From the NCBI GenBank assembly GCA_963677495.2, contig CAXXOU010000001.1:544001-608000 (forward strand): a DNA stretch of 64,000 nt. Reading direction: 5' to 3'. Below the pieces are notes generated by a model. It was not told the DNA's origin, made no database searches, and was given only the letters and a program-made list of their open reading frames with translations. Of this stretch, positions 23,857 to 51,006 are shown piece by piece. Source of the DNA: Candidatus Cloacimonadales bacterium (GTDB lineage: Bacteria; Cloacimonadota; Cloacimonadia; Cloacimonadales; JAFGVF01). Every line of letters begins with the position of its first letter. The stretch's first letter is position 1. The position numbers and the translations under genes were made by a program.

Positions 23857-23871
23857 AATAGATAACTCCAA

Positions 23872-30655: not shown

Positions 30656-31837
30656 ATGTTCAAAAGAGTATTTCTTCTGTGTATCATCACGGTTCTATTC
30701 ATAAATCTCTTCTCCACAGATAAACGTTATTTTCAATTGAAAGGGGAGATTGAGGAAGTTCCCAATAGCATTGAGTATGAGTTGTTCATGCGAAATAAAA
30801 AGCTGACAAAGCACCTTATAAAGCCAACTGTTAAGCCTATAACAATGCTACTATACTCTGATATCAGAGGGCTTAAAATCGGGATAGATGGAGTAAGAAG
30901 ACGAGTAAATGAGTTTGATGGATGTTACATGTTTTTTATAAGACATAATTCTGAATATTTATCTGTTGCAAAAGATGGATGCGGTTACTCATCATTCTCA
31001 CTGGGGGATTTGAAACAATCTAAAACATATAAACTTGAGCTGATAACCGATAAAAGATTTATCAATGAAAGATATGATAGTGATTTCGGATATGGTGGAG
31101 GTGGTGGTGGAGACATATCTGATTGTTTTGCTCGTCAACCGATCAAAGTGAATGCGTTAAAGTTTGAGTTTAAAAGAGATTCTAATATGTTTCCATTGAT
31201 CAAAGTGTATGAATCAAGTATAGAAGATTATCCAGTGGAATATAAGGAGAGCAAGGATATTTTTTGGGGTAAACATACGTTTTCACCACGAAAAAGCAAA
31301 ATTCCTAGTAATCTACACACACTAATACTTGATAAGCAATTCGAGGATTCATTTGTAATCAGCTTTAAGTCTTCCCCGAATCCAGAAATATATCGGGATA
31401 ATGCACTTTATAGAAATAGTACACTAATCCGGGGAGAAAGAGAAAGCAACATTTGGATTGAACCTGAGATTTTGGATCAAATAGAGGGTAGTACAGTAAA
31501 AGTAGAATACCCTCAGTTCCATGCGAAACGGATTGGAAGAACACCAAAAACCAATAAATATACAGTACCTCCTATTGCGATTTATACCTTGCAACCAATA
31601 TATGCTGGGATCAATTTTAAGAAGGGTAAAAAACCTCATAGAGTTATATGCGATGTGGAGGTATTCAAAGATGGTACAGTAGGAGCAGTAGAGATAGATA
31701 ATTTAAGAAGATATGATGATGAAGAGTACATACTGAATACAATGAAAAAATGGGAGTTTATTCCTGCACAGCTTAATGGTGATGCCACTGATTGCTGGGT
31801 AAAGATTCCGATTATGATGGGAACGGAGGTGTGGTAA
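30656..31837 (+). CDS. Exported protein with TonB C-terminal-like domain
   Basis: Signal-like N-terminus; VICDVEVFKDGTVGAVEI...KKWEFIPAQLNG..TDCWVKIPI. Confidence 0.7.
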   Translation: MFKRVFLLCIITVLFINLFSTDKRYFQLKGEIEEVPNSIEYELFMRNKKLTKHLIKPTVKPITMLLYSDIRGLKIGIDGVRRRVNEFDGCYMFFIRHNSEYLSVAKDGCGYSSFSLGDLKQSKTYKLELITDKRFINERYDSDFGYGGGGGGDISDCFARQPIKVNALKFEFKRDSNMFPLIKVYESSIEDYPVEYKESKDIFWGKHTFSPRKSKIPSNLHTLILDKQFEDSFVISFKSSPNPEIYRDNALYRNSTLIRGERESNIWIEPEILDQIEGSTVKVEYPQFHAKRIGRTPKTNKYTVPPIAIYTLQPIYAGINFKKGKKPHRVICDVEVFKDGTVGAVEIDNLRRYDDEEYILNTMKKWEFIPAQLNGDATDCWVKIPIMMGTEVW

Positions 31838-33039
31838 TGAAGAGTTATAGGCTACTCATGACACTCATATTTCTTAACATCTTATGCATAGCTTTTACTT
31901 TAGAAATCAATGTTATAGAGAAAACAAAACTAAATCCCCAACATATAGGTTTACAATTACTGCCTGAAGAAGAGAAAACCAACCTCACTGCTTTACTCAT
32001 AGTACATTGCGAAACTCCTGAACTACTATTCTTTAATAATGAGTACCTACAAAAGCAAATAGACTTAGGAAAATCGTATCTTATTCTTCTAAGAGAAGGT
32101 GCTGATAAAGTAATCATAACTGAAGATGGGATTAACAAACACACGCAAGAGTTTGGCTTTAAATTAAAGAGAGGAGAAGTATATGAAATCTCTTTAGAGG
32201 TTACTAATGCACTTTCTTTTGTAGATAACCAATATGAACATTTTGAACAGGCAATAGAACAGCTCCCTACTGAATACGACAATAAAGGTTATGTTTTAAA
32301 TCTTGCTTATCTAAAAACCGGAGATGATACTGCATTGATCAACTTCAAGGTATTTCCAGATAGCATGACTTTAATGGTGAATGGTTTCTCACTTGAAAAT
32401 GGGATGCATCAAATCTATGTGGATTCAGAAACTCAAAACAGTATTCAGGTCAGACCTGATTCATTCGATGAAGAGGATTATTGGGATGAATATCCGTTGA
32501 ATGAGTTCAGAGAAGAAAAGGAGTATTTAAGTTTTAGTTCTGATGGTAATGTAATTACTTTGGGTTCAATATGTGACAGTTACATACGTAATTATGGGCA
32601 GGACATAAAGAAAATTCCAGTCAAAATGATTATTGATGGTGAAGTCAAGATGGTTGATTTATATCGAAGACAGTGTGTAGGACTTAGAGAAGGAGAATAC
32701 TCATTAAGTAAAAGCAATATAATTTCACAATCATGGGATAATAATTCGGTATATATACATAATAACCGGATACCTGACACTTCTGTAGTATTAAGTGCAG
32801 GGAACCATAAATCACCTAAAAAAAGAACTGATAAGTGTGAGTTAGTTTCATTAATAATAACAGAGAATAATAGAACTCAACCAAAAGTAGTTTGTCGATC
32901 AAGTTATGGGGATCTAAATGATCTAGAAAGAAAGGCGATTGAAATAGTGAAAAAATGGGAGTTCAAACCTGCAAAGAAGAGTGATAAAGAAGTCTCATAC
33001 AGAGTTTTCATACCTGTTAACTTTGGGAAGGATGAATAA
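31837..33039 (+). CDS. Exported protein with PEGA-like region and TonB C-terminal-like domain
   Basis: TAATG translational coupling at 31835-31839; KAIEIVKKWEFKPAK...VSYRVFIPVNF. Confidence 0.7.
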   Translation: MKSYRLLMTLIFLNILCIAFTLEINVIEKTKLNPQHIGLQLLPEEEKTNLTALLIVHCETPELLFFNNEYLQKQIDLGKSYLILLREGADKVIITEDGINKHTQEFGFKLKRGEVYEISLEVTNALSFVDNQYEHFEQAIEQLPTEYDNKGYVLNLAYLKTGDDTALINFKVFPDSMTLMVNGFSLENGMHQIYVDSETQNSIQVRPDSFDEEDYWDEYPLNEFREEKEYLSFSSDGNVITLGSICDSYIRNYGQDIKKIPVKMIIDGEVKMVDLYRRQCVGLREGEYSLSKSNIISQSWDNNSVYIHNNRIPDTSVVLSAGNHKSPKKRTDKCELVSLIITENNRTQPKVVCRSSYGDLNDLERKAIEIVKKWEFKPAKKSDKEVSYRVFIPVNFGKDE

Positions 33040-33041
33040 TT

Positions 33042-34979
33042 ATGAAGAAATGGTTAATCTTTATCTTTGTTTTCGTTCTAGTTGTGGTTGTAATTATAGC
33101 CACTCCCCATTTTATCAGAAAAAAGCTGTTCTTTGAAGAAAACATTAACTCACAGCAACAACCTAGCATTAATAAGAAAGTAGAACCGGGGATTATCCCT
33201 AAAACCACTCTGATAAGCTATAATGGTTCATTATACAAAGAAACTGAGAAATTATGGAATACCCAAACTTTTAGAAGAGTTTCATCAGAATATGACACAC
33301 TCAGAACTTTCGTGATCGATAAACCTGACCACTTAGTTGAAGTTACAGTAGAAACAAAACCCTCAGATGCATTCACATATTTCTGTGAAACTCGACATGA
33401 TATAATCTATGAAAAGTCTTTAGTTCATAGAGGTTTCTTTAGTGTTATCTCAGCTAAGAAAGAGGGTTATAATGAAGCAACTAAAGCATTTAAAGCTTCA
33501 TCAGACACTACTATTACTATTTCTTTAGAAAAGATACAACCCGGAGGTTTTATAACATTTATTTGTAAAACCGGATTTAAAGAGATTACTGCTAATAATA
33601 AGCAAACAAATGCCCATAAAACACGCTATTTGTCAGGGAAATACACTTTTAAAGCTACAAGCTTAGGTATGAATAAGTGGGAGAAAACTATCACAGTAAT
33701 GGATGGTGATGACCTCACTATACCTGTTGATTTTGAAATGACAAGCACATTAGGAATTCTCGATTTAGAGATGATTGGTTATGGAATCGCAAAAGTGATT
33801 GATACTGATGGGAACGCAATAAAATTAAAGTCTTCAAAAAGGGAAAAGCTACATATTGGAAAGTATATTTTGGAGTTCTGGGTACCAAATGAAAGGGAAT
33901 GTGTCTCTAAAGAGATAGATATAAAGAAAGATGAAATAACTACTGTGCGTCATTCATTCATAGATGAACCAATTAATTCCAGCAATAAATTCTCTCAATA
34001 TCAACAGTATGGTGAACTCTTATTATCAGTTTATCCACCTACAGCAAACGTGCAACTGATTTATGAAGATGGTACAATTATTGAGCAGAATAAATGGAAA
34101 CAATTACATAATTTACCTATAGGTAATTATAGTTTGAATCTCTCTGCTTTTGGCTATAGGAGTCAACAATCATCATTCGCAATAACTCCTTTCCACCGAG
34201 AAAAGATAAGGATGGTTTTAGCAAAATCATCTGTACTCTACTCTGTACCACCGGTTATAAGTACTACAGAAATTGGGATGAAAATGGTAGAGATAAAGGG
34301 TGGATCATATATTATGGGTAATGATACAGATAATGAAACGGATAATCCTGAACATGAAGTTACAGTAAAAAGCTTTTTGATGGGACAATATGAAGTAACT
34401 CGAAACCAGTGGGAAAAGGTGATGAACTTAAGAGTTCAATATTATCGTCAAGAATCTGCTATTGTAAATGTTCGTTGGGAACAAGCGGTCGAATTTTGCA
34501 ATAGACTTAGTAAAAAAGAGGGACTTGAACCTTGTTATTATATCAGCTCCGGCAAAGATCCAAACTATCATACTAAAACAGAAGATTCGTTTAAAGTTGT
34601 AATATTTGATCCAGATGCTAATGGCTATAGGCTACCAACTGAAGCTGAATGGGAGTATGCAGCTAAGGGAGGTGTTTATCCGAATACCGGGTTTACACCA
34701 TATATAGATCTAACAGATAGAGAAAAGTTTCCGAAAGATATTAAGCCAAACACATTAGGATTATATAATATCACCGAAGATGTCACTGAATGGTGCAATG
34801 ACTGGTATGATAAAGACTATTATAGTAAATCACCTACATCAAACCCAATGGGACCAAAGACGGGAGAATATGTAGTTTATAGAGGTTTTGATAGTAACAA
34901 TATTAGTAGAAGATATTACTTCCATAGGCATAAATCTGAATCTAATCACGGATTTAGGGTTGTGAGGAATTTGGAATAA
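33042..34979 (+). CDS. PEGA-repeat protein with C-terminal FGE-sulfatase (SUMF1-like) domain
   Basis: N-terminal TM; PEGA-like repeats; MVEIKGGSYIMG, YEVTRNQW, GYRLPTEAEWEYAAKGG, PNTLGLY and GFRVVR. Confidence 0.88.
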   Translation: MKKWLIFIFVFVLVVVVIIATPHFIRKKLFFEENINSQQQPSINKKVEPGIIPKTTLISYNGSLYKETEKLWNTQTFRRVSSEYDTLRTFVIDKPDHLVEVTVETKPSDAFTYFCETRHDIIYEKSLVHRGFFSVISAKKEGYNEATKAFKASSDTTITISLEKIQPGGFITFICKTGFKEITANNKQTNAHKTRYLSGKYTFKATSLGMNKWEKTITVMDGDDLTIPVDFEMTSTLGILDLEMIGYGIAKVIDTDGNAIKLKSSKREKLHIGKYILEFWVPNERECVSKEIDIKKDEITTVRHSFIDEPINSSNKFSQYQQYGELLLSVYPPTANVQLIYEDGTIIEQNKWKQLHNLPIGNYSLNLSAFGYRSQQSSFAITPFHREKIRMVLAKSSVLYSVPPVISTTEIGMKMVEIKGGSYIMGNDTDNETDNPEHEVTVKSFLMGQYEVTRNQWEKVMNLRVQYYRQESAIVNVRWEQAVEFCNRLSKKEGLEPCYYISSGKDPNYHTKTEDSFKVVIFDPDANGYRLPTEAEWEYAAKGGVYPNTGFTPYIDLTDREKFPKDIKPNTLGLYNITEDVTEWCNDWYDKDYYSKSPTSNPMGPKTGEYVVYRGFDSNNISRRYYFHRHKSESNHGFRVVRNLE

Positions 34980-35059: not shown

Positions 35060-35086
35060 AAAAGGGTTGAGCGAACTCAACCCTTC
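35060..35086. terminator. Intrinsic terminator between convergent operons
   Basis: AAGGGTTGAG-cgaa-CTCAACCCTT with an A-run on the left (U-tract on the minus strand). Confidence 0.8.
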
Positions 35087-35107
35087 TAAATGTATTAGAT
35101 AAATGGT

Positions 35108-35845
35108 TTATTTAACCATTAACATCTTTTTCGTATCAGTGATTGAACCACTTGTAAGCTTATAGTAATAAACACCTGATGCTGCGTTATCGGCTGTCCA
35201 AACAACAGAACCTGTGTTGTTATTAACTGTAAGATTACGGAACTCTTTTACTAACTCACCTCTTATATTGAAGATTTCGATCTTAGCATTATCAGCTTGT
35301 GCTTTTGTAAGATTATAGCTTATAGTTGTTGTAGGATTGAATGGGTTAGGGTAGTTAGCAAGTAAGCCAGGTTTTAAAGCACCTTGTACATCATCATCGT
35401 TACTTACTGCTTCAGCAGTTCTGAACAAGAATGGAAGTACTAATGGTTCTGCTAAATCATCTGATGTGATAACATAATCAACATAGAAGTAGCCTGTTGT
35501 ATTGTACATAGCTTGTAGATCAAGACTTATAGTTGCACCAGCAGGGAAAGTGAATTCCCAAGCCGGAGATGCATAATGATGACATCCGTCCGGAACTGTT
35601 GGAGCAAGTCCTTCATTACACCACATAGCCTGCCAGCCATCTGGCAAGTCAACAGGGACTAAGTCGATTTGATAAACACCTTCCGGTCCGTTGTTTGTAA
35701 TATGGAAGAATGGAGAAACATGTGTAGTCATCTCACGAGGTTCTTCACCCACAACCTCAGTATCAAAAGGAATATCAACAACAAGCTCAGCTGCTAACAT
35801 AGCAACTACAGCGATAAACAATATTAATAATAACGATCTTTTCAT
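35108..35845 (-). CDS. Small secreted protein with Cys pair and T9SS-type C-terminal domain
   Basis: Signal peptide; WQAMWCNEG...DGCHHY; NYPNPFNPTTTI...ASGVYYYKL...KKMLMVK. Confidence 0.85.
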   Translation of the reverse strand: MKRSLLLILFIAVVAMLAAELVVDIPFDTEVVGEEPREMTTHVSPFFHITNNGPEGVYQIDLVPVDLPDGWQAMWCNEGLAPTVPDGCHHYASPAWEFTFPAGATISLDLQAMYNTTGYFYVDYVITSDDLAEPLVLPFLFRTAEAVSNDDDVQGALKPGLLANYPNPFNPTTTISYNLTKAQADNAKIEIFNIRGELVKEFRNLTVNNNTGSVVWTADNAASGVYYYKLTSGSITDTKKMLMVK

Positions 35846-35856
35846 TTTAATCTCCT

Positions 35857-37284
35857 TTAGAATCTGGTGATTAACTCAAGTCTAACACCATCGAAAGGCT
35901 TGTTAGTCTTACAAACACCATTCCTACATACTTTTCCGCCCTTCTCACTACCGGCGAAAAGTACTACATCTGTATTTTCATATATAGTAGTTCTAAATTC
36001 TGCATTTACAAAATATCTGCTATCAGTAGCATCACCAAACTCTTCGATATTAGTTTCTGCAATAATTGAGAGAGAATGGTCACCATAGCTTACATCAGTT
36101 TGTAAAAGAGGTTCCCAGTGATTTGCTTCAACACCATTGTTCTCTTTCTCGATTCTCTGCATCTCTGTTTTGATATGGAAACCAAGTGTTTCTGTTGGAA
36201 TGTCGAATACTAATGCAGGAGTTATCTCTCTTTGCCAGGAGATCGCTGCATCATTAACTTTTTCCCAGTAACCGCATTCAGCAGTGACTTCATTCTTTCT
36301 TACTTTCATTCCAAAAGCACCGAAGAAATCGTTCATCTGTCTGTCTTTGTCTGAATCCCAAGCTTCTGCGTAGCTTAGAAGAAGATGATATTTCTCATCT
36401 TCCTGATCCCAACTCAACTCGCCCATGAAACCTTCTTCATCAGCACCACTTGCTAAATCATCAGAAAGTGTTTCTTCATGATAGTTGGCTGTAGGCACAT
36501 CATTGAGGTCATAGTTCATGTTCCAGAACTTCTTATAAGCACCATTAATGCTGAATTCACCGAAATATGCGTTAAGGTTGGCATAATAGCCTTCACCGTT
36601 AAAATCATACTCATCGATCATGGTTCTTGCATATTCACCATAGAAATCAAAATAGTCCCATTCCTGAGTCATTCTGAAACCATAAGCTTGCATCAAATAA
36701 TATGCAGAGCTTGATTTAAGTCTCTCATTCTGAAAGTAAGATGCACCAATCTTTGTATGAGGAATGTAACTGCTTTCTATATCGAAAAGACCTGCGAGTT
36801 CATTTGCATCATAGTCTTCGCTTGGCATTGCACCATAGAGACCTTTAACTTCAAAGTACTCAGTCGCAGCTTTAATAAGTGCAGCTTCGAGTCTGGTATC
36901 TACATCCACATCTTCATCACGATATGAACGGAAAAGCAGGCCTGAACCTACAAAGTCCTCTGTAGTACCGATATGTAAAAGTAGATCATCTCTTTCAAAA
37001 GTAAGATATCTCTCATCCCATTCAACTTTTACATCTTCTGAATCAAGGTCTTCGATTGGATTATCGCTCTCATACTTAGGAAGAGATGCTAAAAACTTCA
37101 TACCGAACACAAGATCTTTGTAGTTGGCAAGTAAACTAAGTTCATTATAAAAATATGTGTTCAAAGAATCATCTACTGCTTTATAGATAACTTCCATCTC
37201 ATTGGTTCCACTTAACTCAAAATCATCACCAATCAGCAATGATAATGATGTGAGAAGCAGAAGAGCTATAACAATTTTCTTCAT
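35857..37284 (-). CDS. DUF6029-like outer-membrane beta-barrel protein
   Basis: Signal peptide; alternating beta-strand pattern; GSGLLFRSY; C-terminal GGKVCRNGVCK...GVRLELITRF ending in Phe. Confidence 0.75.
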   Translation of the reverse strand: MKKIVIALLLLTSLSLLIGDDFELSGTNEMEVIYKAVDDSLNTYFYNELSLLANYKDLVFGMKFLASLPKYESDNPIEDLDSEDVKVEWDERYLTFERDDLLLHIGTTEDFVGSGLLFRSYRDEDVDVDTRLEAALIKAATEYFEVKGLYGAMPSEDYDANELAGLFDIESSYIPHTKIGASYFQNERLKSSSAYYLMQAYGFRMTQEWDYFDFYGEYARTMIDEYDFNGEGYYANLNAYFGEFSINGAYKKFWNMNYDLNDVPTANYHEETLSDDLASGADEEGFMGELSWDQEDEKYHLLLSYAEAWDSDKDRQMNDFFGAFGMKVRKNEVTAECGYWEKVNDAAISWQREITPALVFDIPTETLGFHIKTEMQRIEKENNGVEANHWEPLLQTDVSYGDHSLSIIAETNIEEFGDATDSRYFVNAEFRTTIYENTDVVLFAGSEKGGKVCRNGVCKTNKPFDGVRLELITRF

Positions 37285-37293
37285 TAAGGGCTC

Positions 37294-37815
37294 CTATTCG
37301 GCTGCTTCTTCTACATGTTCTTCGACTGTAGCTTCTATGCCTAACAGTTTCTGGATTTCAGCTTCGAGAATCTTTTCTCCACCAGGTTTACCTGACATGA
37401 AGTCAAATACTACAGTTCCATCTTTATCCACGATGAATGTATGAGGAATATTCTTCACACCCATCTTCTTTGAAATCTTCTGGTCACTGTCAAAAAGTGT
37501 AACGAAACCAAACTTTTTCTTCTTAACATAAGCTTTAGCTTTAACTTTCTTGCGTGGAGAGTCAATAGAGATAGCAACAACTTTGATGCCTTCATACTTT
37601 TTATCAATCTCATCAAGATGTGGCATTGCTTTCTTACAAGGATCACACCAGCTAGCCCAAAAATCCACAACAATTGGACCATCTTTAAGTAATGATTTAA
37701 GTGATACTTTCTTGCCTTTAACGTCTTCCAGTTTAAAGTCAGCAAACTTCTTCTCAGCGAAGAGTGAACCTGCAAGTAGCAGGACTAAAACTATGATTAC
37801 TATTTTAAATTTCAT
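37294..37815 (-). CDS. TlpA-family thiol-disulfide reductase
   Basis: DFKLEDVKG, VDFWASWCDPC and cis-Pro IPHTFIVD. Confidence 0.92.
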   Translation of the reverse strand: MKFKIVIIVLVLLLAGSLFAEKKFADFKLEDVKGKKVSLKSLLKDGPIVVDFWASWCDPCKKAMPHLDEIDKKYEGIKVVAISIDSPRKKVKAKAYVKKKKFGFVTLFDSDQKISKKMGVKNIPHTFIVDKDGTVVFDFMSGKPGGEKILEAEIQKLLGIEATVEEHVEEAAE

Positions 37816-37827
37816 TTTGTGCTCCTC

Positions 37828-38901
37828 TTAGTTTAATTCAGCTTCCATAACATTATGGATTTTACAGGTTGTCTCATCGAAAGTCTCAGGCATTGTCTGA
37901 ATAAGTATGATGAGCTTTGCATCATCAGGCATTGCACTTCCTACTGTATGTTCAAACTCATAAGTCCCATTGAAGTCAGCATCAGTTAGGGCAATTCTAT
38001 TCTGTTCAAGCATTACATTCTTACAAGGATCACCGGCATAATTATTTGTAGCTGATGTCTCTTCAATGAACATATATCTAAGATATAGGTTATCAAAAGC
38101 AACTGAACCGGGGTTATCAAGTTCTAACTGAACAGTATACTTTCCCGCTTCAAGTGTATAATTGAAGTTCTCGAACGTGATAGTAGCATCTGTATTAACT
38201 GTTGTATTGATAATTCCATCATATTGAGATAATGTTATCTCCTCTGAACCAACAAAAATGTTACTTCCTTGTAAAACTCCTGTTGGAGCGCTATAGATGT
38301 TATACCAGCTTTGTAACTCGCTGAAATCACCGCTTAAACCGTCATTATAATGATATTCGACATATGAGAGGCTACTACCATAAGTTGCCTTTAATGCTTC
38401 GATTTCATGTTCAAGTTCAGGACAGTTGGGACACCATGTAGCAGTAAGTATCTCTACAAAGGCAACTGTCTTATCTTCTGAAGGTGGTTCCATCTGGTTA
38501 CCATAGAAAAGGTAGCCATCACCGTTCTCAATGAGAACATCAGTTTCAGGAATTTCTTTAACTGAAGCAAATGACCATTCAACAGTAAGGTTATCCTCAC
38601 TGATTACATCTATTGATACTGTAAATGGAGCAGTAACTGTTTGCATTAAAGCAGTAAACTCATTCTCAATGTCTGTCTTTGTTAAACCCTGATTGAGATA
38701 GCTGTCACTGTAGAATGCCATAATACTACTAACATCACCGGATGTCATTGAATCAAGGGCATCTTTAATATCGTTTTGGAAATAGGTTTCTATCTCCTCT
38801 GCTATACCAGGTCCTGTCTCAGGCTCCGGTTTAGTAAATCTTTCACATGCACTTACAAGTAATACAAGCACTATGATAAATATAAATGTTAATTTCTTCA
38901 T
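37828..38901 (-). CDS. Omp28-like thioredoxin-fold lipoprotein
   Basis: Lipobox LVSA|C; EILTATWCPNCP; SAPT; Ig-like C-terminus. Confidence 0.8.
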   Translation of the reverse strand: MKKLTFIFIIVLVLLVSACERFTKPEPETGPGIAEEIETYFQNDIKDALDSMTSGDVSSIMAFYSDSYLNQGLTKTDIENEFTALMQTVTAPFTVSIDVISEDNLTVEWSFASVKEIPETDVLIENGDGYLFYGNQMEPPSEDKTVAFVEILTATWCPNCPELEHEIEALKATYGSSLSYVEYHYNDGLSGDFSELQSWYNIYSAPTGVLQGSNIFVGSEEITLSQYDGIINTTVNTDATITFENFNYTLEAGKYTVQLELDNPGSVAFDNLYLRYMFIEETSATNNYAGDPCKNVMLEQNRIALTDADFNGTYEFEHTVGSAMPDDAKLIILIQTMPETFDETTCKIHNVMEAELN

Positions 38902-38910
38902 ATTGGATCC

Positions 38911-40506
38911 TTATGGCTCAAGAATAATGTAAGTCGGAAGTCCTTTAACATCGAACATCTCCATCACTTCTTTTGCCGGAGTTTCATTTGGTTTTTCAGC
39001 ATAATACTTAATAAACTCATACTTCTCAAGCGCTTTTATAACACCTTCATCTTTGAAAGTAGTTCTATCCATCTCTTTACAAGAGCTACACCATGAAGCA
39101 GTGAAGTCTAAGAAAATAGGTTTCTGCTCATCCATAGCAGCTTCAATCTGAGAAGCAGTTCCGGTTACAGTTTTAGGTTTTAAGATATGATATGCATTTG
39201 TGCTGTATTTGAAAGCCATAAACAGAATGAACACACCGAAGATAATCTTAACCCATTTCATCCAGTTACCAGGTTTTGGAAGGACAGACATACCGCCACC
39301 TAAGAATGGCCATGGAAGAGCCATACCAAGTCCAAGTAAGAATGGTAATGCTAATCCAAGAATATTACCATCAGCATAAAGCTGTCCGGCATATATGATA
39401 ACTGCAATCAAGATTGGAGCTACACAAGCACCTGCAAGTAGAGCTGCAAAGATACCCATAACAAAAACACCGGCAATCTTACCTCGTTGCTGAGCACGTT
39501 TATTAGGGTTTTGATACTTTGAGAAATCTATAGCAAAAACATCGAACATTGCCAGAGCAAGAAAGATGAAGATGACTGCAATTACAGCATTGAAAATCCA
39601 TGATGAGTTTAACTGACCGAATGCGGATCCGGTTAAAGCTGCAATTAAACCTAAAGCTCCGTAAGCGATGGCCATACCGAGACCATAACTTGCACCAAGC
39701 ATGATACCTTTACCTTTTGATTGACCTTGTGAACCGGCACCAATAATAGCAACAGTAATAGGAATCATAGGCAAAACACATGGAGTAAGGTTCATAAGAA
39801 GTCCACCGACAATGATAGAAATAAGCAATAACCAAATGCTCTTTCCGGCTAAACCTTCATCTTCTGTAGCACCGTCAGTGTTTGCATCACCAATAGCACC
39901 AGGATTTTCTAAGAATGCAATAAACTTGTCAGCTTTAATGTAACCTGTCTTAGCACCTTTGATTTTATATTTCTTGTTAAGTCTTGTAAAAGCATCAACC
40001 ACTTTCTGATTATCTTCTGCACTACCTTCTGTTACAGTAGCTTCCGTAGAAGTAACTTCATTAGCTACACTCTTACCGGTTACAAATGATAAAGTAGCCT
40101 CCTCATCAACAGGCATCTCACAAGCAGCACCAGCTTCACAGAGTTGATAACCATAAGCAATCTTAATCTCACCATCTTTCTTTGAAGCATCAAATGTGCA
40201 TTTCTGAGACAACACAACTTCATGCTTATATTTTATAGTTTCTTCATTTTTTAGTCCATCCGGGTTTGGATAAACAGTCGGTTCAAACTCTAAGCCATCC
40301 CCACTAGCTTCAAGATAGAACATAGGCATGTCATCACCGACAACATAAGATTGGTAATAATGGTCAGGGATATTAAATTTCATTAAAAGAGTTCCGGTCC
40401 CATTACCTTTCTGGAACTCGAATTCAACTTCAGGTTTTGCTTGGGCAGATAAACTACCTATTAGCAACAACATCAGAGATACGACAATCAGTAAGCTCTT
40501 GCGCAT
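38911..40506 (-). CDS. dsbD: DsbD-like transmembrane thiol-disulfide interchange protein
   Basis: N-domain YQLCEAGAACEMP; TM LTPCVLPMIP and AGACVAP; PKPGNWM; C-terminal thioredoxin DFTASWCSSC. Confidence 0.88.
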   Translation of the reverse strand: MRKSLLIVVSLMLLLIGSLSAQAKPEVEFEFQKGNGTGTLLMKFNIPDHYYQSYVVGDDMPMFYLEASGDGLEFEPTVYPNPDGLKNEETIKYKHEVVLSQKCTFDASKKDGEIKIAYGYQLCEAGAACEMPVDEEATLSFVTGKSVANEVTSTEATVTEGSAEDNQKVVDAFTRLNKKYKIKGAKTGYIKADKFIAFLENPGAIGDANTDGATEDEGLAGKSIWLLLISIIVGGLLMNLTPCVLPMIPITVAIIGAGSQGQSKGKGIMLGASYGLGMAIAYGALGLIAALTGSAFGQLNSSWIFNAVIAVIFIFLALAMFDVFAIDFSKYQNPNKRAQQRGKIAGVFVMGIFAALLAGACVAPILIAVIIYAGQLYADGNILGLALPFLLGLGMALPWPFLGGGMSVLPKPGNWMKWVKIIFGVFILFMAFKYSTNAYHILKPKTVTGTASQIEAAMDEQKPIFLDFTASWCSSCKEMDRTTFKDEGVIKALEKYEFIKYYAEKPNETPAKEVMEMFDVKGLPTYIILEP

Positions 40507-40693
40507 CAAATCCTCCGTAGACTTATTTTACTAATACACTAATCAATTTTCTTAAACAGACATGCAAGTTTTCCACCAAAGTCTGCTTTAAATCATATTA
40601 TATAACTACATATTTCTATCAAGTTTTTTATTCACTACTGAAGGTTTTTGAGTATTTATTGATTCACAAACTTAAAACGAAAGAACAAAAAAT

Positions 40694-40719
40694 AGGCTAT
40701 CCCATAATGGAATAGCCTA
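40694..40719 (-). terminator. Intrinsic terminator after the C25 protease
   Basis: TAGGCTAT...ATAGCCTA hairpin with a U-run on the minus strand. Confidence 0.7.
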
Positions 40720-40738: not shown

Positions 40739-43700
40739 TTACTTCATTAATATCATTTTATTAGTAGCTTTATAACTATCAGTAGTCATTCTATAGAAGT
40801 AGATACCACTAGCAACTTGCTTGCCATTAGAGTCATCTCCCTTCCAAAGAACTGAATGGTTACCTTTAGTCATGACATCATTGAGTACAGTTGTAACCTT
40901 CTTACCAAGAATGTTGTAAACTTCAATCTTAACTTTACCACTTTCTTTCATAGAGAAAGCGATATTAGTTTCAGGATTGAATGGGTTTGGATAGTTACCC
41001 TGTAATGTTGTAGTGTAAACTGCAACATTATCGTTATTATCGGTAGGAGTTCCCACACCATTAACTATGACTCCACTCAATGGATTGTTAGGATCATCAC
41101 TTGTAACAGCTACCTGTTGAGAGTAGTTTTCAGTTGCTGTTGGCATGAAAACGATGTCAAAATCAAATGTATCTCCTGATTCAACAATATAAGAAATTTC
41201 ATCTGCATCAGTTCCATCTCTTCTGATCTTGAATTCAGGAAGCAATGATGTAATAGCGCCAACCATAACTTCATCACCACTATTTGTAAGTGTTACTGTT
41301 TGAGCTGACTCTTCACCAACCATAACTTCACCAAACTCAATCGCTGTTGTATCTATTGCAAATATCGGTGCACCTGGATTTTGTGGTGCCATAGGGAAAA
41401 CTATATCATCAACCCAAGCACAATCTGAACCTGAAGATGCCATCCAGTCTTTGCTATATTCCCATTTAAATGTATGGTTACCGGCCGAAACATCATATGT
41501 CTCTTGTGACCAGTTCACCGAACCTGACCATTCACCCTGTTCCTGATTATCAATATAAAATCTGAAGAAGTCGTAACTTGACTCTGATGATACTTTCTTC
41601 CAGAAAGATATCTGGCCAGCTTGTGCGATAGTCATAGTTACTTGCATAGTAGTCGTGCCATTGTTAGATATATCTGCTGTTTTTGCAGCTACTCCATCAT
41701 GACCACCATTGGCATCAATTGTCCAGTTTCCACCAGTAAATGTATATCCATAACTATCGAAGTTGTTATCAAATGTTTCCATTGTAAGACCAACAATTAC
41801 ATTATCGGATGCTTCAGTCATATAGTTTCCAGATTCTACACCATAATCAAGATTAATTGAAGTTAAGGCAGGGATTTGACTACTGAAAGCAACATTATAG
41901 TTACCAATAGCAGTTGAGCCCATACCTAATCTTGTAAAGATTGGTGATTCAGCAGGAACAATACTAACGAGAGTATTATCAAATGAAAGTGTAGTAAAAC
42001 CATTTCCAGCAGAAGCATGTCCATTGTTTGTTGCTATAAACTGAACATTCCATATCTCACCTTGGTCATACATTGAGTTTCCATTACCCAAAATTTCAGT
42101 CCAAGTTAATGCTTCTACTGATAATGCCGGAGCATTAACAGTTAAACTTTTCTCTGCTGTCCAGTTATTAGCAGGATCAATAATTGTAACTGTAACTGGA
42201 ATCATATATTGATCAGGAACACTATCACTAATTGAAACAGTAAATGCTTCATTCAACATTATTTGACCGTCAGCATCGAGTGCAGCAGTTGTAATCTCAG
42301 GTTGAGTAATAGTTACATATGGATCAGCTGAAGCGATATTCACGGTAAGTACACCGGAAGCATCAACCCCAACATTCTCTAACGTAATATTAACATCAGC
42401 AGTATTTCCATACTGTCCATCGCTAGCATTTGTAAAACTTAAATCGTTAACAATAATGTAAGCACCATCAGCTGCAACAGTTAAGACATCAGCAGTATAT
42501 GTAACTTTGTTAAAGGCTGTGACAGTTACTGTAAGATTAGTTGGTTGTAAAGGAGCAGGATCAAGTGTTACAGCCGCATTTCCTGAAGCATCAGTATAAC
42601 CTGCACCAAGTAAAGTTCCATTATCAGTAATACTTACTAAAGCAGGATTACCTGTATCAAGACCACTTACTGAAGCATTGAATACTGAAGAACCAAGGAA
42701 AAATGTAGGCATATGAGATACTGTTATATCTTCCGGTTGTCTTGTACGAACCATAAGTGATGCATCACCGAAAATATTCCAAGTTTTATACATATCAGTA
42801 CCAACACCTGCATAATTGTCCATCATCTCGCATGAACCGTTGTAATAAAGGCCACCAACTGTTGTCTTATCTTCTGCGATTAAAAGATCAGTAATCTCAT
42901 CTTGTCCTCTCATAGGAGAATCCCAGTCCTGATTAACAGAAGATGCATAAATAGCCATAGCCCCGGTAGGAGCATCACCATTAGTTGCTCTTGTCCAGCC
43001 TTCGGCAAAACATGTATTTGATACAAAATTACCATTAACACAAGCAACACTTACGATAAATGGAAGTTTGTAGTCATTTGTAAGCTGATTACAGTTGTTT
43101 ACACTGAATCCTGTTGTTGACCATGCAGTAGTAGAACCATGGCCAACATAGTTAATAAACCCACGACCAGCATTAACACTATTAGCAACATTACTTGAGC
43201 TGGCACCCGGGTCATAAATCTGGTCTACAGTATTATATCCGTAACCTAAAAGATCAGTTCTAATATTGTTCATGTGAACGATGTCAGATTCACCCATATC
43301 ACCATTACTACCACCACCTTCATCAGAAGCGATACCAATAGCATTATTCAACCAGTCATTAGTATTATCAATATCTCTTTCGTACCAGATAACTCTATCT
43401 ACCTGAGTTTCAAGTTGTGAAGTATTCTCAGCAGAGAATCTTCCAATGAAGATATCAGGATATGAATCAGTACCATTTACGAGAGCAAGAATAGGGTCAG
43501 CACCACCATTCTGTCCACTGTAATAGTGGCTTAATGCAGGCATCTGAGCTGCATCACCGGCAAGCTGAACAAAAGCAAGGTTTGGGTTACTATTATAATA
43601 GTTTTGAATAAAAGTCTGAATCTGAGATGCAGTTGTACCGATTGTAGACAACTCTACGAGCTCTGCATTCATTCCTTTCTGAATCTTCCAATCAACATAT

Positions 43701-44443
43701 TCCTGCATTAGGTCCATATACTGTGTTGGAGCGATAGCCAGAAGTGAACCTGAATCCTCAACAGGTGTATACCTGTCTGTTGTGAAATTCATGAAGTGGT
43801 TTTCATAGATAGATAAAAACTCTTTACTGTAAGTAGTAGCCTCTCTATCAAGGGTATTAACCATACTGAAACCATTGTTCTCTACTTCAACTAACAAGCG
43901 AGTATAAACTCTAAGCTTCTTTGTTACAGGATTAAATGTGAAAGGACTAAATTTAACTACAACACCACGCATATCTCTTAAAATATAAGGTTCACTAAGA
44001 GTAACTAACTCTTGTGGATAGTATGCGTTTTCATTATACATTGCACCGAATGTATAAGCTACTGTTGCAGGATCAATGTTTCTAGTAATTGAACCTTTAG
44101 AAGGTGCAACATTCATATCAAACTCTTGATATTCACTTTTTAAAATTTTTACATCAGCATTTGCTGTTGCAGGTATTATGATACTTCTGTTCATCACAGG
44201 AAGCATTGGAGCACCACTTTCCTGACTCACAGGTTCAGTGCTCATATTAATTAAATCAAATTCCTCATTGTTTATTCTTACACTATTTCTTTCGAAATCA
44301 CTTACTGATAGCGCAAGAACTGTACTGTTGTTATCTGAGGATACTAAGCGGACAGAGTTCATTCCGTTGTTTAATTCAACAGTTTCACTCAAAAGCAGAC
44401 CTGCTACCATTAATAGTAGTAAAAACAGGGTTAACTTCTTCAT
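40739..44443 (-). CDS. Gingipain-like C25 cysteine peptidase with propeptide, Ig domains and T9SS-type C-terminal domain
   Basis: Propeptide (PSKG, PYILRD); R|YTPVED maturation site; NYVGHGSTTAW (His); IVSVACVNGNF (Cys); GESDIVH; NYPNPFNPET C-terminal domain. Confidence 0.93.
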   Translation of the reverse strand: MKKLTLFLLLLMVAGLLLSETVELNNGMNSVRLVSSDNNSTVLALSVSDFERNSVRINNEEFDLINMSTEPVSQESGAPMLPVMNRSIIIPATANADVKILKSEYQEFDMNVAPSKGSITRNIDPATVAYTFGAMYNENAYYPQELVTLSEPYILRDMRGVVVKFSPFTFNPVTKKLRVYTRLLVEVENNGFSMVNTLDREATTYSKEFLSIYENHFMNFTTDRYTPVEDSGSLLAIAPTQYMDLMQEYVDWKIQKGMNAELVELSTIGTTASQIQTFIQNYYNSNPNLAFVQLAGDAAQMPALSHYYSGQNGGADPILALVNGTDSYPDIFIGRFSAENTSQLETQVDRVIWYERDIDNTNDWLNNAIGIASDEGGGSNGDMGESDIVHMNNIRTDLLGYGYNTVDQIYDPGASSSNVANSVNAGRGFINYVGHGSTTAWSTTGFSVNNCNQLTNDYKLPFIVSVACVNGNFVSNTCFAEGWTRATNGDAPTGAMAIYASSVNQDWDSPMRGQDEITDLLIAEDKTTVGGLYYNGSCEMMDNYAGVGTDMYKTWNIFGDASLMVRTRQPEDITVSHMPTFFLGSSVFNASVSGLDTGNPALVSITDNGTLLGAGYTDASGNAAVTLDPAPLQPTNLTVTVTAFNKVTYTADVLTVAADGAYIIVNDLSFTNASDGQYGNTADVNITLENVGVDASGVLTVNIASADPYVTITQPEITTAALDADGQIMLNEAFTVSISDSVPDQYMIPVTVTIIDPANNWTAEKSLTVNAPALSVEALTWTEILGNGNSMYDQGEIWNVQFIATNNGHASAGNGFTTLSFDNTLVSIVPAESPIFTRLGMGSTAIGNYNVAFSSQIPALTSINLDYGVESGNYMTEASDNVIVGLTMETFDNNFDSYGYTFTGGNWTIDANGGHDGVAAKTADISNNGTTTMQVTMTIAQAGQISFWKKVSSESSYDFFRFYIDNQEQGEWSGSVNWSQETYDVSAGNHTFKWEYSKDWMASSGSDCAWVDDIVFPMAPQNPGAPIFAIDTTAIEFGEVMVGEESAQTVTLTNSGDEVMVGAITSLLPEFKIRRDGTDADEISYIVESGDTFDFDIVFMPTATENYSQQVAVTSDDPNNPLSGVIVNGVGTPTDNNDNVAVYTTTLQGNYPNPFNPETNIAFSMKESGKVKIEVYNILGKKVTTVLNDVMTKGNHSVLWKGDDSNGKQVASGIYFYRMTTDSYKATNKMILMK

Positions 44444-46975: not shown

Positions 46976-49360
46976 CTACTTCATCAATACCATCTTAGTA
47001 GTAAAACTTTTATCCGTACTCTTCATCTTGCAGAAATATATCCCAGATGATACTGTTCTATTATCTTCATCTTTGCCGTTCCATACAATGCGATGCTCTC
47101 CTATCTCCATCTCCTCATCAGATAAAGTCCTGATTCTTTGCCCTTTCACATTGTAGATGGCAATTTCAACTTTCGATTTCACCGGTATAGTAAATGAGAT
47201 ATTAGTTGTGGGATTAAACGGATTAGGGTAATTAGCCAGACTGTATGGTTCAAGACTTGTAACATTATCTTGTGCATTTGTATACCCGGGGAACTCATAA
47301 CACCCTATATCAATACTGCTTCCATAAATCCTATCCTCACCGGCAAGATCATATAAAGGGAACTCGTAGTTTGCAGGGAATAGTGATAAATCCATTGTCC
47401 CTGCATCTATAGCAGGAGAAGGTCCCACTTCTGTATCATCTCCGGATAGATAGTAGTATTCAGGGAATGCCGGATCACCACCTACAAATAATGGATCTGT
47501 TCCAATTAGGTTATCTGAGCCAAAATCAATTGGTTCATCTTGATAAACTTGATAAATATCTTCAGTTCTTGAAAATAAATTGAAATTGATGTTTGTACCC
47601 CTAAAGCAATAGAAATCGAAATTAAATCCAGTATTGTTTACAACAATGTTATTGTAGAACCTATCTATTGAATCATCAATCATAAAGTATGAATTATCAC
47701 TTCCACTATTATTAGCAAAAGTACTATTTACTATTGATACATTAGAAAATCCACCAAAGATATCAAATACTGATGGTGCCTGAGAAGTATAATTATTTGC
47801 ATAAAGGCAACTATCTATTAATAATGTTGGTGATGTCGTTAATGTAAAATGTCTGAAAGTAGCATATCCACCTAAACCATTATGCTCATTGTTAATGAAC
47901 TTTGAATTGATTATGTGTATTGAGTTTCTGGCATATATATCGTATAAACCACAAGCTTGAGCAACATCTTGGATAGGAATACTACCAGCAATGTTATTTG
48001 TCATTGTAACATTACTCATTTTTATTGATTCGATATAAGCCTTTACAATTGTTCCCCATCTTGCAAAATTATTTCGGAGAATCGTATTTTTGATTTCTAT
48101 ATTTGTCTCATTACTATTGAAATTTAAAATCCCATAATTAGTTTCAGAGTTTTCAACTATAGCATTATTTATAGTGGAGTTATTAGTTGCATATGAGCAA
48201 ATTGCTGGTGCATTTAAGCTTGTTACACTTAAATCTTTAATCAACATGTTATTTTGATTTGAACCAAATGAAACAGCCCCAGACACAGGAGTATCTACAA
48301 AATCTTCGGCAAAGACATGTGTGAGATTCGGGGATGTACCTTGTAATATTGTGTTTTCTTTTAAAACAATTGATACACCTTGTCCATTTATCTCTTCAAA
48401 GAAATCACCTTCTAACAGATGCACCGTTAGAGGATTATCATCACTGGGATTCAACTGTTGAAAAGCCTTCCAAGTAGTTCTTAAAGGATTTTCAGGAGTT
48501 AAACCGGAATTAGTATCATCTCCACTCATAGACACATATAGGTCATTCTCAATTGGTGATATGAATGTTCGTTCGATATCAAACACAGGAAACGGATAAT
48601 CACCTACTTGAGAATAGGTATTAACATAATAACTTGTAGGCTCGTACCATGTAAACATGTCTAAATAGATATCTAATGCAAATCCATGAGTAAAACACCA
48701 GCCAATGTCCATGCCCTGAGGACTATAGTTATTGAATATGCTACAGCGATTATATTGATCAAAAATGATTTGAGAATAGTCAGTACTATTGCTCATAAAG
48801 CACACACCCCCACCTATAAATCTTCCAATGTTATTATATACATTGATATTGCTCATAGTGCAAGCAACGTTTTCAAAAGCAAAACAGATTCCTCCCCCTT
48901 GTGATGCTTGGTTATTATAAATATTTAAATTCATTAAATCTAACTCAATACTATTATGTAAAAACAATCCTCCACCAAAAACTTGCCAGCTATCAATATC
49001 ATCACTATCCCAATAAATATATCCTCGACCACCGGTTATTGAAAACCCTCTAATTGTACAATTAGTTAGGTTTTCGTAGCATAATATGGTTGAATTTTCT
49101 TCGTTGGAGCCGTCAATAATGGTATCTGCAATATAAGTAGTATCACCAGTAGTAGCTTCCAATGTGCACAATGTGACATTAGATTTATTACTAAACTCAA
49201 TATTCTCAAGATATGTACCGGGATGTACCAAAACGGTATCTCCGGTTACAGAGAGATCAATCCCCTCTTGTATAGTTGCATAATCCATCGGAATGTTAAT
49301 TATGTTAGCGAGTAGTAGAATTGGTAAAAGCATTAGTAGTAAAAGAAAGCTTCTTTTCAT
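46976..49360 (-). CDS. Secreted right-handed beta-helix (pectate-lyase-like) protein with T9SS-type C-terminal domain
   Basis: DYATIQEGID..GDTVLVHPGTYLENI; LYVSMSGDDTNSGLTPENPLRT; SPAIDAG..DIGCYE; NYPNPFNPTT...SSGIYFCKM. Confidence 0.85.
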   Translation of the reverse strand: MKRSFLLLLMLLPILLLANIINIPMDYATIQEGIDLSVTGDTVLVHPGTYLENIEFSNKSNVTLCTLEATTGDTTYIADTIIDGSNEENSTILCYENLTNCTIRGFSITGGRGYIYWDSDDIDSWQVFGGGLFLHNSIELDLMNLNIYNNQASQGGGICFAFENVACTMSNINVYNNIGRFIGGGVCFMSNSTDYSQIIFDQYNRCSIFNNYSPQGMDIGWCFTHGFALDIYLDMFTWYEPTSYYVNTYSQVGDYPFPVFDIERTFISPIENDLYVSMSGDDTNSGLTPENPLRTTWKAFQQLNPSDDNPLTVHLLEGDFFEEINGQGVSIVLKENTILQGTSPNLTHVFAEDFVDTPVSGAVSFGSNQNNMLIKDLSVTSLNAPAICSYATNNSTINNAIVENSETNYGILNFNSNETNIEIKNTILRNNFARWGTIVKAYIESIKMSNVTMTNNIAGSIPIQDVAQACGLYDIYARNSIHIINSKFINNEHNGLGGYATFRHFTLTTSPTLLIDSCLYANNYTSQAPSVFDIFGGFSNVSIVNSTFANNSGSDNSYFMIDDSIDRFYNNIVVNNTGFNFDFYCFRGTNINFNLFSRTEDIYQVYQDEPIDFGSDNLIGTDPLFVGGDPAFPEYYYLSGDDTEVGPSPAIDAGTMDLSLFPANYEFPLYDLAGEDRIYGSSIDIGCYEFPGYTNAQDNVTSLEPYSLANYPNPFNPTTNISFTIPVKSKVEIAIYNVKGQRIRTLSDEEMEIGEHRIVWNGKDEDNRTVSSGIYFCKMKSTDKSFTTKMVLMK

Positions 49361-49573
49361 AGTCACGACCTTTTCAGGACACAATATTTGGAAGCTTCTG
49401 CAGATTCAAAATATTGGGTCAATGTCTTTTAGTTTATTCGCTACATATATTTTCTATGTGTCAAGAATAAAAGCAAGACTTCTGGTTTCTTCTTGCAGAA
49501 GATTAACTATCATAGATTAAATTCAGGTCAGTGGAGCTTGCCGACTTCGTCGTCACAGCAACTCGGGAGAGTC

Positions 49574-50232: not shown

Positions 50233-50997
50233 TTATGGATTAACTTTCAGATATGTATCGTTTGGAATCCAGCCACCTAAACCGTTTGGTAGCTTAACAA
50301 GAGCCCAATCGTTTTGGAACTCCTCTAGAGTAAGGTTCATACCTTCATGAATAGTGAAAACTCGTGAGAAATCCTCTCCCGGCCCACTGTGCCCAATTGC
50401 CGAATCACTCATAAGTACAGCCGGTTTATGACTATTATAGCTATTAATTCTAGACACAGTAATAATAAAGCTAAGGGTGAAGATAAAAATTAGAATTGTA
50501 AGAATGAAAACAGGTACTGATTTCTCTCTATTTCTGAACTTAAGTAGGATAAAAATAATCATCCCAATGATAGAAAGAAAGAGAATCAACGAGAGCATAG
50601 ATGCTCTATTGATATTGAAAAAAGAGAATAATCTAGCCCAGATACTTCCGATGAACCCATCAGACGCATCCTCCTGCTTGTCCTTTGTTAGAGAAAGAGC
50701 AAACTTAAGGTTATTATTCGCCTGTTTATGTGAAGAATCGATACGTAAAGCTCGTTTGAAGTTGAGTATAGCCGGACCAAGTCTATTCTTTCTGAAATGA
50801 CAATTGCCGATATTGTAGTATAGATTAGCGTTCTTTACACCACGCTCAATCAATTCATTATAATTATCTAACGCTTTATCGAACTCTTTTTCTGCATATA
50901 AATCATTCGCCCTAATAAAGAGAGCATTATCAGAAAGAGCAATAGCACTGAGAGCAGTGATAGTAAATAGTATAGCAATAATAAATAATCTCTTCAT
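50233..50997 (-). CDS. batE: BatE (TPR + SH3b)
   Basis: LYYNIGNCHFRKNRLGPAILNFKRAL; TM hairpin; HSGPG..FTIHEG..WALVKL..GLGGWIP. Confidence 0.88.
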   Translation of the reverse strand: MKRLFIIAILFTITALSAIALSDNALFIRANDLYAEKEFDKALDNYNELIERGVKNANLYYNIGNCHFRKNRLGPAILNFKRALRIDSSHKQANNNLKFALSLTKDKQEDASDGFIGSIWARLFSFFNINRASMLSLILFLSIIGMIIFILLKFRNREKSVPVFILTILIFIFTLSFIITVSRINSYNSHKPAVLMSDSAIGHSGPGEDFSRVFTIHEGMNLTLEEFQNDWALVKLPNGLGGWIPNDTYLKVNP

Positions 50998-51006
50998 GAT
51001 AACCTC

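What the first reader, a model, noticed from the sequence alone, without database searches (positions are those of the whole stretch)
35108..40506. Five-gene operon that looks like a complete cytoplasm-to-surface thiol-redox relay, directly downstream of a gingipain
Seen: tightly spaced genes (9-15 bp gaps), each with a cysteine pair. DsbD has CEAGAAC, TM PC/AC and WCSSC. The Omp28-like lipoprotein has WCPNC. TlpA has WCDPC. The DUF6029-like outer-membrane barrel has CRNGVC near its C-terminus. The secreted C-terminal-domain protein has WC...GC. Established: DsbD passes electrons from cytoplasmic thioredoxin to periplasmic TlpA-like proteins, and gingipains need a reduced catalytic Cys. From memory, Bacteroidota carry a similar uncharacterised TlpA/DUF6029/Omp28 cluster; this needs checking. 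Inference: the barrel's Cys loop moves reducing equivalents across the outer membrane, to keep surface cysteine proteases active or to open disulfide-bonded protein substrates. I know of no described outer-membrane analogue of DsbD.
Basis: partly seen in the sequence, partly recalled or inferred. Interest (0 to 1): 0.78.

Follow-up and report, generated by a model that had tools for sequence, protein, structure and literature searches.

The report
Outer-membrane thiol electron conduit operon
These five genes appear to build a chain of cysteine-pair proteins that carries reducing power from inside a bacterium through an outer-membrane pore to its surface, a route I did not find described; the link to the neighbouring protease gene looks incidental.

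Summary
In detail: DsbD, an Omp28-like lipoprotein, TlpA, a DUF6029 barrel and a CTD protein form one tight operon, each with a cysteine pair; the host resembles Cloacimonadota. The barrel is a predicted 24-stranded pore without a plug. Its C453/C458 hairpin is present in 120 of 120 full-length relatives from an unbiased search. TlpA lies upstream in 65 of 67 loci and is fused to the barrel in four proteins from two lineages. A complex model (0.90, best control 0.00) puts TlpA inside the lumen from the periplasmic side, with its CxxC on that hairpin. In WOR-3-type loci DsbD is replaced by a NapH-like Fe-S module, and the Omp28-like protein carries probable selenocysteine (UxxC). The fifth protein folds like Porphyromonas PorA, and P. 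gingivalis locus tags suggest the same cluster. Best reading: a thiol-disulfide conduit across the outer membrane (about 0.6). The outward hand-off, the surface location of the lipoprotein and the final substrate are untested. The gingipain link is not supported: a C25 gene is directly upstream in 0 of 19 related loci, and a terminator-like hairpin separates it here.

The parts
38911..40509 (-). DsbD-type inner-membrane electron transporter: N-terminal Ig-domain pair C124/C130, membrane pair C244/C362, C-terminal thioredoxin WCSSC
   Evidence: PF02683 E 1.7e-44; PF13899; PF11412 weak; NF001419 196.7 bits, below cut-off 330
37828..38901 (-). Omp28-like lipoprotein (lipobox C19) with thioredoxin-type WCPNC; orthologous position is UxxC in WOR-3-type loci
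   Evidence: (weak match to HBP35 5y1a, E 0.14)
37294..37815 (-). Periplasmic TlpA-family thioredoxin (WCDPC, cis-Pro loop P124); modelled inside the barrel lumen; fused to the barrel in relatives
35857..37284 (-). DUF6029 outer-membrane beta-barrel, 24 predicted strands, no plug domain, C-terminal Phe
   Evidence: (pLDDT 96.7)
35902..35937 (-). Glycine-flanked beta-hairpin with C453-x4-C458 in the last outer-side loop (L12) of the barrel; contacted by the TlpA CxxC in the model
35108..35845 (-). PorA-like protein: signal peptide, Ig-like domain with invariant pair C76/C88, T9SS-type C-terminal domain
   Evidence: PorA-N 6kjk Z 10.3, rmsd 3.2, 119 aligned
35060..35087 (-). Terminator-like hairpin closing the operon
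   Evidence: pattern match only
40693..40719 (-). Terminator-like hairpin between the C25 peptidase gene and dsbD
   Evidence: pattern match only
40739..44443 (-). Gingipain-like C25 peptidase with CTD; neighbour, probably not part of the unit

Best explanation
A thiol-disulfide electron conduit across the whole envelope. Step 1 (established for the family): cytoplasmic thioredoxin reduces DsbD, which passes electrons through its membrane, C-terminal and N-terminal cysteine pairs. Step 2 (established type of reaction, inferred here): the N-terminal DsbD pair reduces TlpA. Step 3 (modelled): TlpA enters the barrel from the periplasm, docks under inward-folded loops L3, L7 and L12, and reduces the C453/C458 hairpin. 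Step 4 (inferred, untested): the glycine-hinged hairpin passes the electrons to a thioredoxin-fold partner on the outer face, most likely the Omp28-like lipoprotein. Step 5 (inferred): that protein reduces the cysteine pair of the exported PorA-like protein or external substrates such as oxidised surface proteins or disulfide-bonded protein food. The chain alternates thioredoxin-fold CxxC domains with beta-hairpin cysteine pairs, as inside DsbD itself (recalled knowledge). The conserved core is TlpA plus barrel; the electron source is interchangeable. Estimated odds: about 0.85 that the hairpin is TlpA's redox partner, about 0.6 that electrons go on outward, about 0.15 that gingipains are the dedicated target.
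For: Hairpin pair in 86 of 86, 120 of 120 full-length hits of a word-free search, including 25 of 25 whose best stretch was N-terminal, and 120 of 120 listed Bacteroidota-type relatives; C453 and C458 are 2 of only 6 invariant columns in 145 sequences. TlpA upstream in 65 of 67 loci, an Omp28-like domain in 52 of 62. TlpA-barrel fusions in P0108, P0113, P0118 and P0281, whose barrel parts belong to two distant groups. Complex model 0.90 in three runs, best of 3 controls 0.00; that mark was reached by 116 of 157 solved complexes and 2 of 215 mismatched pairs; runs agree in at least 97% of contacts, partner pLDDT at least 87. The interface holds TlpA C57/C60/P124 and barrel C453/C458; 34 of 35 strand contacts lie in the periplasmic half. 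Of 51 loci with both flanks, 21 have DsbD only, 20 a NapH-like Fe-S protein only, 0 both, 10 neither. 34 of 84 Omp28-type domains have TGA at the first CxxC cysteine, with SECIS-like hairpins; selenocysteine marks redox-active sites (established knowledge). Thioredoxin domain and Cys-pair Ig domain are fused in 12 of 15 long CTD forms and in 4 lipoproteins of about 900 aa (Ig matches weak, E 1e-5 to 5e-3), so they likely share a compartment. The related architecture HBP35 is a surface thioredoxin in P. gingivalis (PMC2907840).
Against: No result places the lipoprotein or any partner on the outer face, and no result shows the hairpin reachable from outside. The complex score is model confidence and was made with my own paired alignments. 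Interface columns are barely more conserved than the rest (0.47 against 0.42). The DsbD/NapH exclusion follows lineage, so it may be one event. 10 of 51 loci have neither module nearby and 10 of 62 lack the lipoprotein. The PorA-like domain follows the barrel in only 28 of 67 loci. A T9SS has not been shown in this host, so export of the CTD protein is assumed. In 9 of 26 related DsbD proteins my pattern found no C-terminal CxxC.
Confidence: 0.6

Rival explanations
1. Redox-gated export pore: the usher-sized barrel secretes the PorA-like Ig protein, and TlpA acts as a plug or latch that opens the hairpin disulfide.
For: Best fold matches are the 24-strand usher translocation domains FimD and PapC (Z 19.9, rmsd 4.5, 366 aligned; Z 18.5). 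PorA has a FimH-like fold and reaches the surface without the T9SS translocon (PMC7712824). The fifth protein's best N-domain match is PorA-N.
Against: Identity to ushers is 9% and many unrelated barrels score Z 15-17. The model has no usher plug or chaperone-binding domains. 39 of 67 loci have no PorA-like gene after the barrel. Conserved loops and TlpA fill the lumen in the model.
Confidence: 0.14
2. Reductive uptake: the barrel admits or captures an oxidised solute (disulfide-linked peptides, cystine, a metal or chalcogen compound) on its hairpin, TlpA releases it inward, and the lipoprotein faces the periplasm.
For: Fits the invariant hairpin, the TlpA docking and the electron sources equally well. 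HBP35 is linked to hemin use (PMC2907840).
Against: No transporter recurs next to the core among the most frequent neighbour clusters. It does not explain CTD-bearing thioredoxin and Cys-pair proteins in the same operon.
Confidence: 0.14
3. The hairpin is a structural disulfide, as in LptD, and TlpA is only its dedicated isomerase or assembly factor.
For: A cross-strand pair in a beta-hairpin can be structural; outer-membrane proteins with loop disulfides are common (established knowledge).
Against: 228 of 320 full-length barrels have no other cysteine in the mature region to mispair with. The pair is more conserved than almost any other residue. Fusion to TlpA and selenocysteine in the partner point to turnover.
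Confidence: 0.07
4. DUF6029 is a polysaccharide export porin.
For: PMC9603273 suggests this from HHpred similarity of Wzi-like barrels to DUF6029.
Against: The recurring neighbours are redox genes; glycosyltransferase-like or epimerase-like neighbours (my reading of their N-termini) occur in 3-4 of 80 loci, mostly on the other strand. Wzi scores Z 14.1, below many other barrels.
Confidence: 0.03

Closest known systems
DsbD/ScsB/CcdA - TlpA (CcmG, ResA) relays
   Same: Same inner-membrane transporter and periplasmic thioredoxin, same cysteine chemistry.
   Different: As I recall them, known relays end in the periplasm. Here the modelled acceptor of TlpA is a cysteine pair inside an outer-membrane barrel.
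Porin-cytochrome conduit MtrAB(C) of Shewanella
   Same: A large plugless barrel with a periplasmic redox protein inserted in it, and a proposed outer partner; MtrB matches at Z 16.4, rmsd 4.5, 362 aligned.
   Different: No hemes or CxxCH motifs in the five proteins; two-electron thiol exchange, and the barrel itself carries the redox pair.
P. gingivalis PG2172-PG2175 (PorA, Omp28, uncharacterised 65 kDa protein, 18 kDa thioredoxin-domain protein)
   Same: Same gene order by locus tag; PorA is 246 aa against 245 here, with the same domain plan and fold.
   Different: No sequence match to PorA was detected. That PG2174 is a DUF6029 barrel is recalled, not checked. PorA is described as a T9SS regulator; the word disulfide does not occur in the main text of that paper.
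HBP35 of P. gingivalis
   Same: Surface CTD protein with thioredoxin activity; the long form of the fifth gene has thioredoxin, Ig and CTD domains.
   Different: The window's fifth protein lacks the thioredoxin domain; the passages read name no electron source for HBP35.
Clostridial 4Fe-4S / CxxC peptide / TlpA operon; NapH-like membrane modules
   Same: The same kind of trio flanks the barrel in WOR-3-type loci; described in bioRxiv 10.1101/2025.11.06.686285; NapH-like proteins as membrane electron carriers in PMC8238504.
   Different: Those passages mention no outer-membrane barrel; homology of the trio was judged from domains and motifs only.
Chaperone-usher translocation domains (FimD, PapC)
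   Same: 24 strands; best fold scores.
   Different: No plug or periplasmic domains; invariant cysteine hairpin and thioredoxin partner.

Membership tests
DsbD | Membrane domain with a conserved cysteine pair | tested here: met
   PF02683 E 1.7e-44; C244, C362
DsbD | N-terminal Ig-domain pair and C-terminal thioredoxin CxxC | tested here: met
   C124/C130, PF11412 weak (E 0.0085); WCSSC, PF13899 E 5e-11
DsbD (NCBIfam NF001419) | Score above curated cut-off | tested here: not met
   196.7 against 330 bits
TlpA family | Signal peptide, redoxin fold, WCxxC and cis-Pro | tested here: met
   PF00578 E 3.9e-26, PF08534; W, C, C, P invariant in 60 sequences
DUF6029 | PF19494 above gathering score | tested here: met
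   51.2 against 27 bits; Atlas hits 0.98
Omp28 family lipoprotein | NF033782 or PF11551 above cut-off | tested here: not met
   23.8 against 150 bits; no PF11551 match. It is Omp28-like only.
Omp28 family lipoprotein | Surface exposure | not testable with these tools
   No tool; no passage on it found
PorA | Signal peptide, single Ig-like domain, CTD; PorA-N fold | tested here: met
   (Z 10.3, rmsd 3.2, 119 of 134; next N-domain match Z 9.1, so the margin is small)
PorA | Sequence homology to P. gingivalis PorA | tested here: inconclusive
   6kjk not found by phmmer or two profiles; 8% identity in the fold match
T9SS cargo | Type A C-terminal sorting domain | tested here: met
   PF18962 43.2 against 27; TIGR04183
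T9SS cargo | T9SS machinery in the host genome | not testable with these tools
   Only the window was available
Porin-cytochrome conduit (MtrAB) | Multiheme cytochrome with CxxCH motifs inside the barrel | tested here: not met
   No CxxCH in the five proteins; it works like one at most
Porin-cytochrome conduit (MtrAB) | Plugless barrel housing a redox protein | tested here: met
   In models only
Chaperone-usher usher | 24-stranded barrel | tested here: met
Chaperone-usher usher | Plug domain and periplasmic N- and C-terminal domains | tested here: not met
   Barrel spans residues 22-474 of 475
Wzi-like polysaccharide porin | Encoded beside OPX and polysaccharide genes | tested here: inconclusive
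   Not among the recurrent neighbours I annotated; singletons were not annotated

The most novel reading that the evidence does not exclude
DUF6029 barrels, with over 3000 relatives of one Bacteroidota-type member alone, are an outer-membrane counterpart of DsbD: a 'porin-thioredoxin' conduit whose hinged cysteine hairpin hands electrons from a lumen-docked TlpA to surface (seleno)thioredoxins. In P. gingivalis the same cluster would be the missing link between surface PorA and the inner-membrane sensor PorY, the electron source of surface thioredoxins such as HBP35, and perhaps PorA's T9SS-independent exit.
Probability: 0.5. Interest if true: 0.92.

Novelty: categorically new. Interest (0 to 1): 0.8.

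Why it matters
Gram-negative cells are known to move thiol reducing power across the inner membrane (DsbD) and heme electrons across the outer membrane (MtrAB). I found no description of thiol electron transfer across the outer membrane in ten searches of the held library; subscription papers are mostly missing from it. If true, this gives a function to a large unknown family across Bacteroidota, Cloacimonadota, WOR-3 and Eisenbacteria, and explains how surface thioredoxins are recharged. It also makes an open question testable: the PorA paper states that other factors must link surface PorA to PorY, and its likely neighbours are this barrel and TlpA.

Tried and rejected
Gingipain as dedicated target: rejected on synteny and the hairpin between the genes; co-occurrence elsewhere in genomes was not testable. 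Sequence searches of solved structures gave no relative of the barrel (the RecA rows are short spurious matches) and did not reach PorA. Fold searches gave only generic large barrels; Foldseek did not list PorA among the rows shown for the fifth protein. Atlas search of the Ig domain gave only leads under 0.9. The profile search for longer carriers of the Ig domain returned 20 proteins, those named all Cloacimonadota. Two broad alignments were too divergent for the genome scan. The scan that ran kept 80 of 193 confirmed loci; its pattern contains the first cysteine, so it is not used for conservation, and no locus is titled Bacteroidota. Promoter scan was at chance level (28 against 34.7). The small-peptide query matched no NCBIfam model. 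The organisms of the fused proteins stayed unchecked because the cluster look-up could not be made. Papers on PG2174 gave only lists; PMC10947112, PMC6635597, PMC8542988, PMC5266723, PMC13188914 and PMC13404670 added nothing on this cluster.
Full report
Observation. Families: DsbD, TlpA-type redoxin, DUF6029 and Por_Secre_tail pass Pfam cut-offs; the lipoprotein is only Omp28-like. Named close relatives of the barrel are Cloacimonadota. Terminator-like hairpins lie after the last gene and between the C25 peptidase and dsbD; the total number of such sites is at chance level, so only their position counts.

The barrel. AlphaFold2 with 145 sequences gives pLDDT 96.7 and 24 strands with no plug. 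Short turns alternate with long loops; by the usual topology rule the C453/C458 hairpin lies in the last outer-side loop, L12. The pair is in 86 of 86 word-search hits. In the word-free search it is in 137 of 150 listed hits: all 120 of 430 aa or more, while the 13 misses are fragments lacking the C-terminus. It is also in 120 of 120 listed relatives of a Bacteroidota-type member, out of 3122 found. Invariant columns are G106, G115, G445, C453, G456 and C458. No solved relative was found by sequence; folds match usher translocation domains best, then many barrels including MtrB. The one paper naming DUF6029 suggests polysaccharide export from HHpred similarity (PMC9603273, passages).

Partners. 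The genome scan kept 80 of 193 confirmed loci, titled mainly Cloacimonadota and WOR-3/Stahlbacteria, with Eisenbacteria, Coatesbacteria and others. Among loci with enough flank, TlpA is upstream in 65 of 67, an Omp28-like domain in 52 of 62, DsbD in 23 of 57; a NapH-like protein is downstream in 27 of 67 and the PorA-like domain in 28 of 67. One TlpA miss has a masked stretch just upstream. Cloacimonadota loci keep the five-gene order. TlpA is fused in front of the barrel in three Cloacimonadota-like proteins and one Bacteroidota-like protein.

Complex model. With paired 60-row alignments, TlpA and barrel score 0.90 in three runs, best control 0.00. That mark was reached by 116 of 157 solved complexes and 2 of 215 mismatched pairs, counts that hold only roughly for my own alignments; runs agree in at least 97% of contacts and partner pLDDT is at least 87. 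I found no solved like complex it could be recalled from. Mapping the 60 barrel contacts on the monomer's strands: 34 in the periplasmic half of strands, 1 in the outer half, 5 in periplasmic turns, 20 in loops L3, L7 and L12, including C453 and C458; the TlpA side includes C57, C60 and P124. So TlpA enters from the periplasm and the conserved outer-side loops fold into the lumen. This is a model, not a measurement, and interface columns are only slightly more conserved than others.

Electron source and selenium. Where DsbD is absent, WOR-3-type loci carry after the barrel a membrane peptide of about 45 aa with a CxxC (20 of 26 loci), a Fer4_5/NapH-like protein (below the NapH cut-off) and in 12 loci an FAD/NAD(P) oxidoreductase. 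Of 51 loci with both flanks, 21 have DsbD, 20 the NapH-like gene, none both, 10 neither; this split follows lineage. A similar trio is described in Clostridia (bioRxiv 10.1101/2025.11.06.686285, passages), and NapH-like proteins are proposed membrane electron carriers (PMC8238504, passages). In 20 of 20 members of the WOR-3 lipoprotein cluster an in-frame TGA stands at the first CxxC cysteine; over all loci 34 of 84 Omp28-type domains are UxxC, followed by hairpins that fold better than those after cysteine codons (median z -1.04 against -0.32; relatives are not independent). NCBIfam already has an Omp28-related selenoprotein model, so that part is known in kind.

The fifth gene. Its cysteine pair is invariant in 30 of 30 aligned sequences (two partial genes and one dissimilar neighbour left out). 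Of 31 Cloacimonadota-type orthologues, 15 are long forms and 12 of those carry an extra N-terminal CxxC domain, the plan of HBP35, a surface protein with thioredoxin activity (PMC2907840, passages). Four lipoproteins of about 900 aa join the Omp28-like domain to weakly matching Cys-pair Ig domains. The model's best N-domain match is PorA-N (Z 10.3), without sequence support. In P. gingivalis W83, PG2172 is PorA, PG2173 Omp28, PG2174 an uncharacterised 65 kDa protein also seen in vesicles and PG2175 an 18 kDa thioredoxin-domain protein (PMC13744359 and PMC9722745, passages and one supplement search; PMC4335976, passage). That PG2174 is DUF6029 is recalled, not shown. PorA reaches the surface without the T9SS translocon, its loss lowers gingipain activity, and a mediator to PorY is unknown (PMC7712824, passages and part 1 of 2 of the Discussion); it also binds PorV-Sov (PMC8754138, passages).

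The gingipain. A C25 domain appears in 3 of 80 loci, 8-10 kb from the barrel, and directly upstream of DsbD in 0 of the 19 loci where that gene is visible. The adjacency here is probably incidental. Cysteine proteases could still be among the substrates.

Mechanism and rivals. Best reading (0.6): DsbD or the Fe-S module reduces TlpA; TlpA docks in the barrel and reduces the hairpin; the hairpin reduces a surface thioredoxin-fold partner, which serves the PorA-like protein or outside substrates. Shown in sequence: motifs, conservation, synteny, fusions. Modelled: TlpA on the hairpin. Inferred: everything outward of it. Rivals are a redox-gated export pore for the PorA-like protein (0.14), reductive uptake with a periplasm-facing lipoprotein (0.14), a structural disulfide (0.07) and polysaccharide export (0.03).

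Novelty and limits. Ten searches of the held library showed no paper describing this cluster as a unit or a thiol conduit across the outer membrane; most subscription papers and bioRxiv supplements could not be seen, and other listed papers were seen only as search listings. Unchecked: lipoprotein sidedness, barrel-lipoprotein binding, a T9SS in this host, Bacteroidota neighbourhoods by sequence, and the organisms of the fused proteins.

Noticed in passing
L045:12057, L048:12205, L052:5672, L069:1995 and others: Several Cloacimonadota loci have a further Omp28-type UxxC gene with a SECIS-like hairpin right after the PorA-like gene.
   Followed up: partly
L046, L058, L065, L067, L072, L075, L076, L079, L080 (DsbD genes): My pattern found no C-terminal CxxC in these 9 of 26 DsbD relatives; they may be a variant that bypasses that domain.
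   Followed up: no
L068, L075, L076 downstream of the fifth gene: A 493-528 aa protein with a C-terminal TlpA domain follows where the long fifth gene lacks its N-terminal CxxC.
   Followed up: no
L036, L038, L042: Coatesbacteria-type loci have a 420-597 aa protein upstream of the barrel; in L042 it ends in a TlpA domain.
   Followed up: no
L008, L020, L035, L059 and others downstream of the Fe-S module: An enolase-like gene, often fused to a membrane M50-like region in about 870 aa, recurs in WOR-3-type loci.
   Followed up: no
window 30656-34979 (+): Two proteins with weak TonB C-terminal domains and an FGE-sulfatase-domain protein converge on the operon's end; GC is lower here (0.33-0.36).
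   Followed up: no
window 13615-18159 and 19555-23871 (-): Two related-looking 1.4-1.5 kaa secreted proteins with MAM and Ig-like domains; CTD proteins also at 8376-9995 and 46976-49384.
   Followed up: no
window 50233-58370 (-): N-termini suggest a MoxR / DUF58 / BatA-E type cluster (label recalled, not scanned).
   Followed up: no
window 120-5932 (-): N-termini suggest type IV pilus genes (PilT-like, PilM-like, prepilin-like) (labels recalled, not scanned).
   Followed up: no
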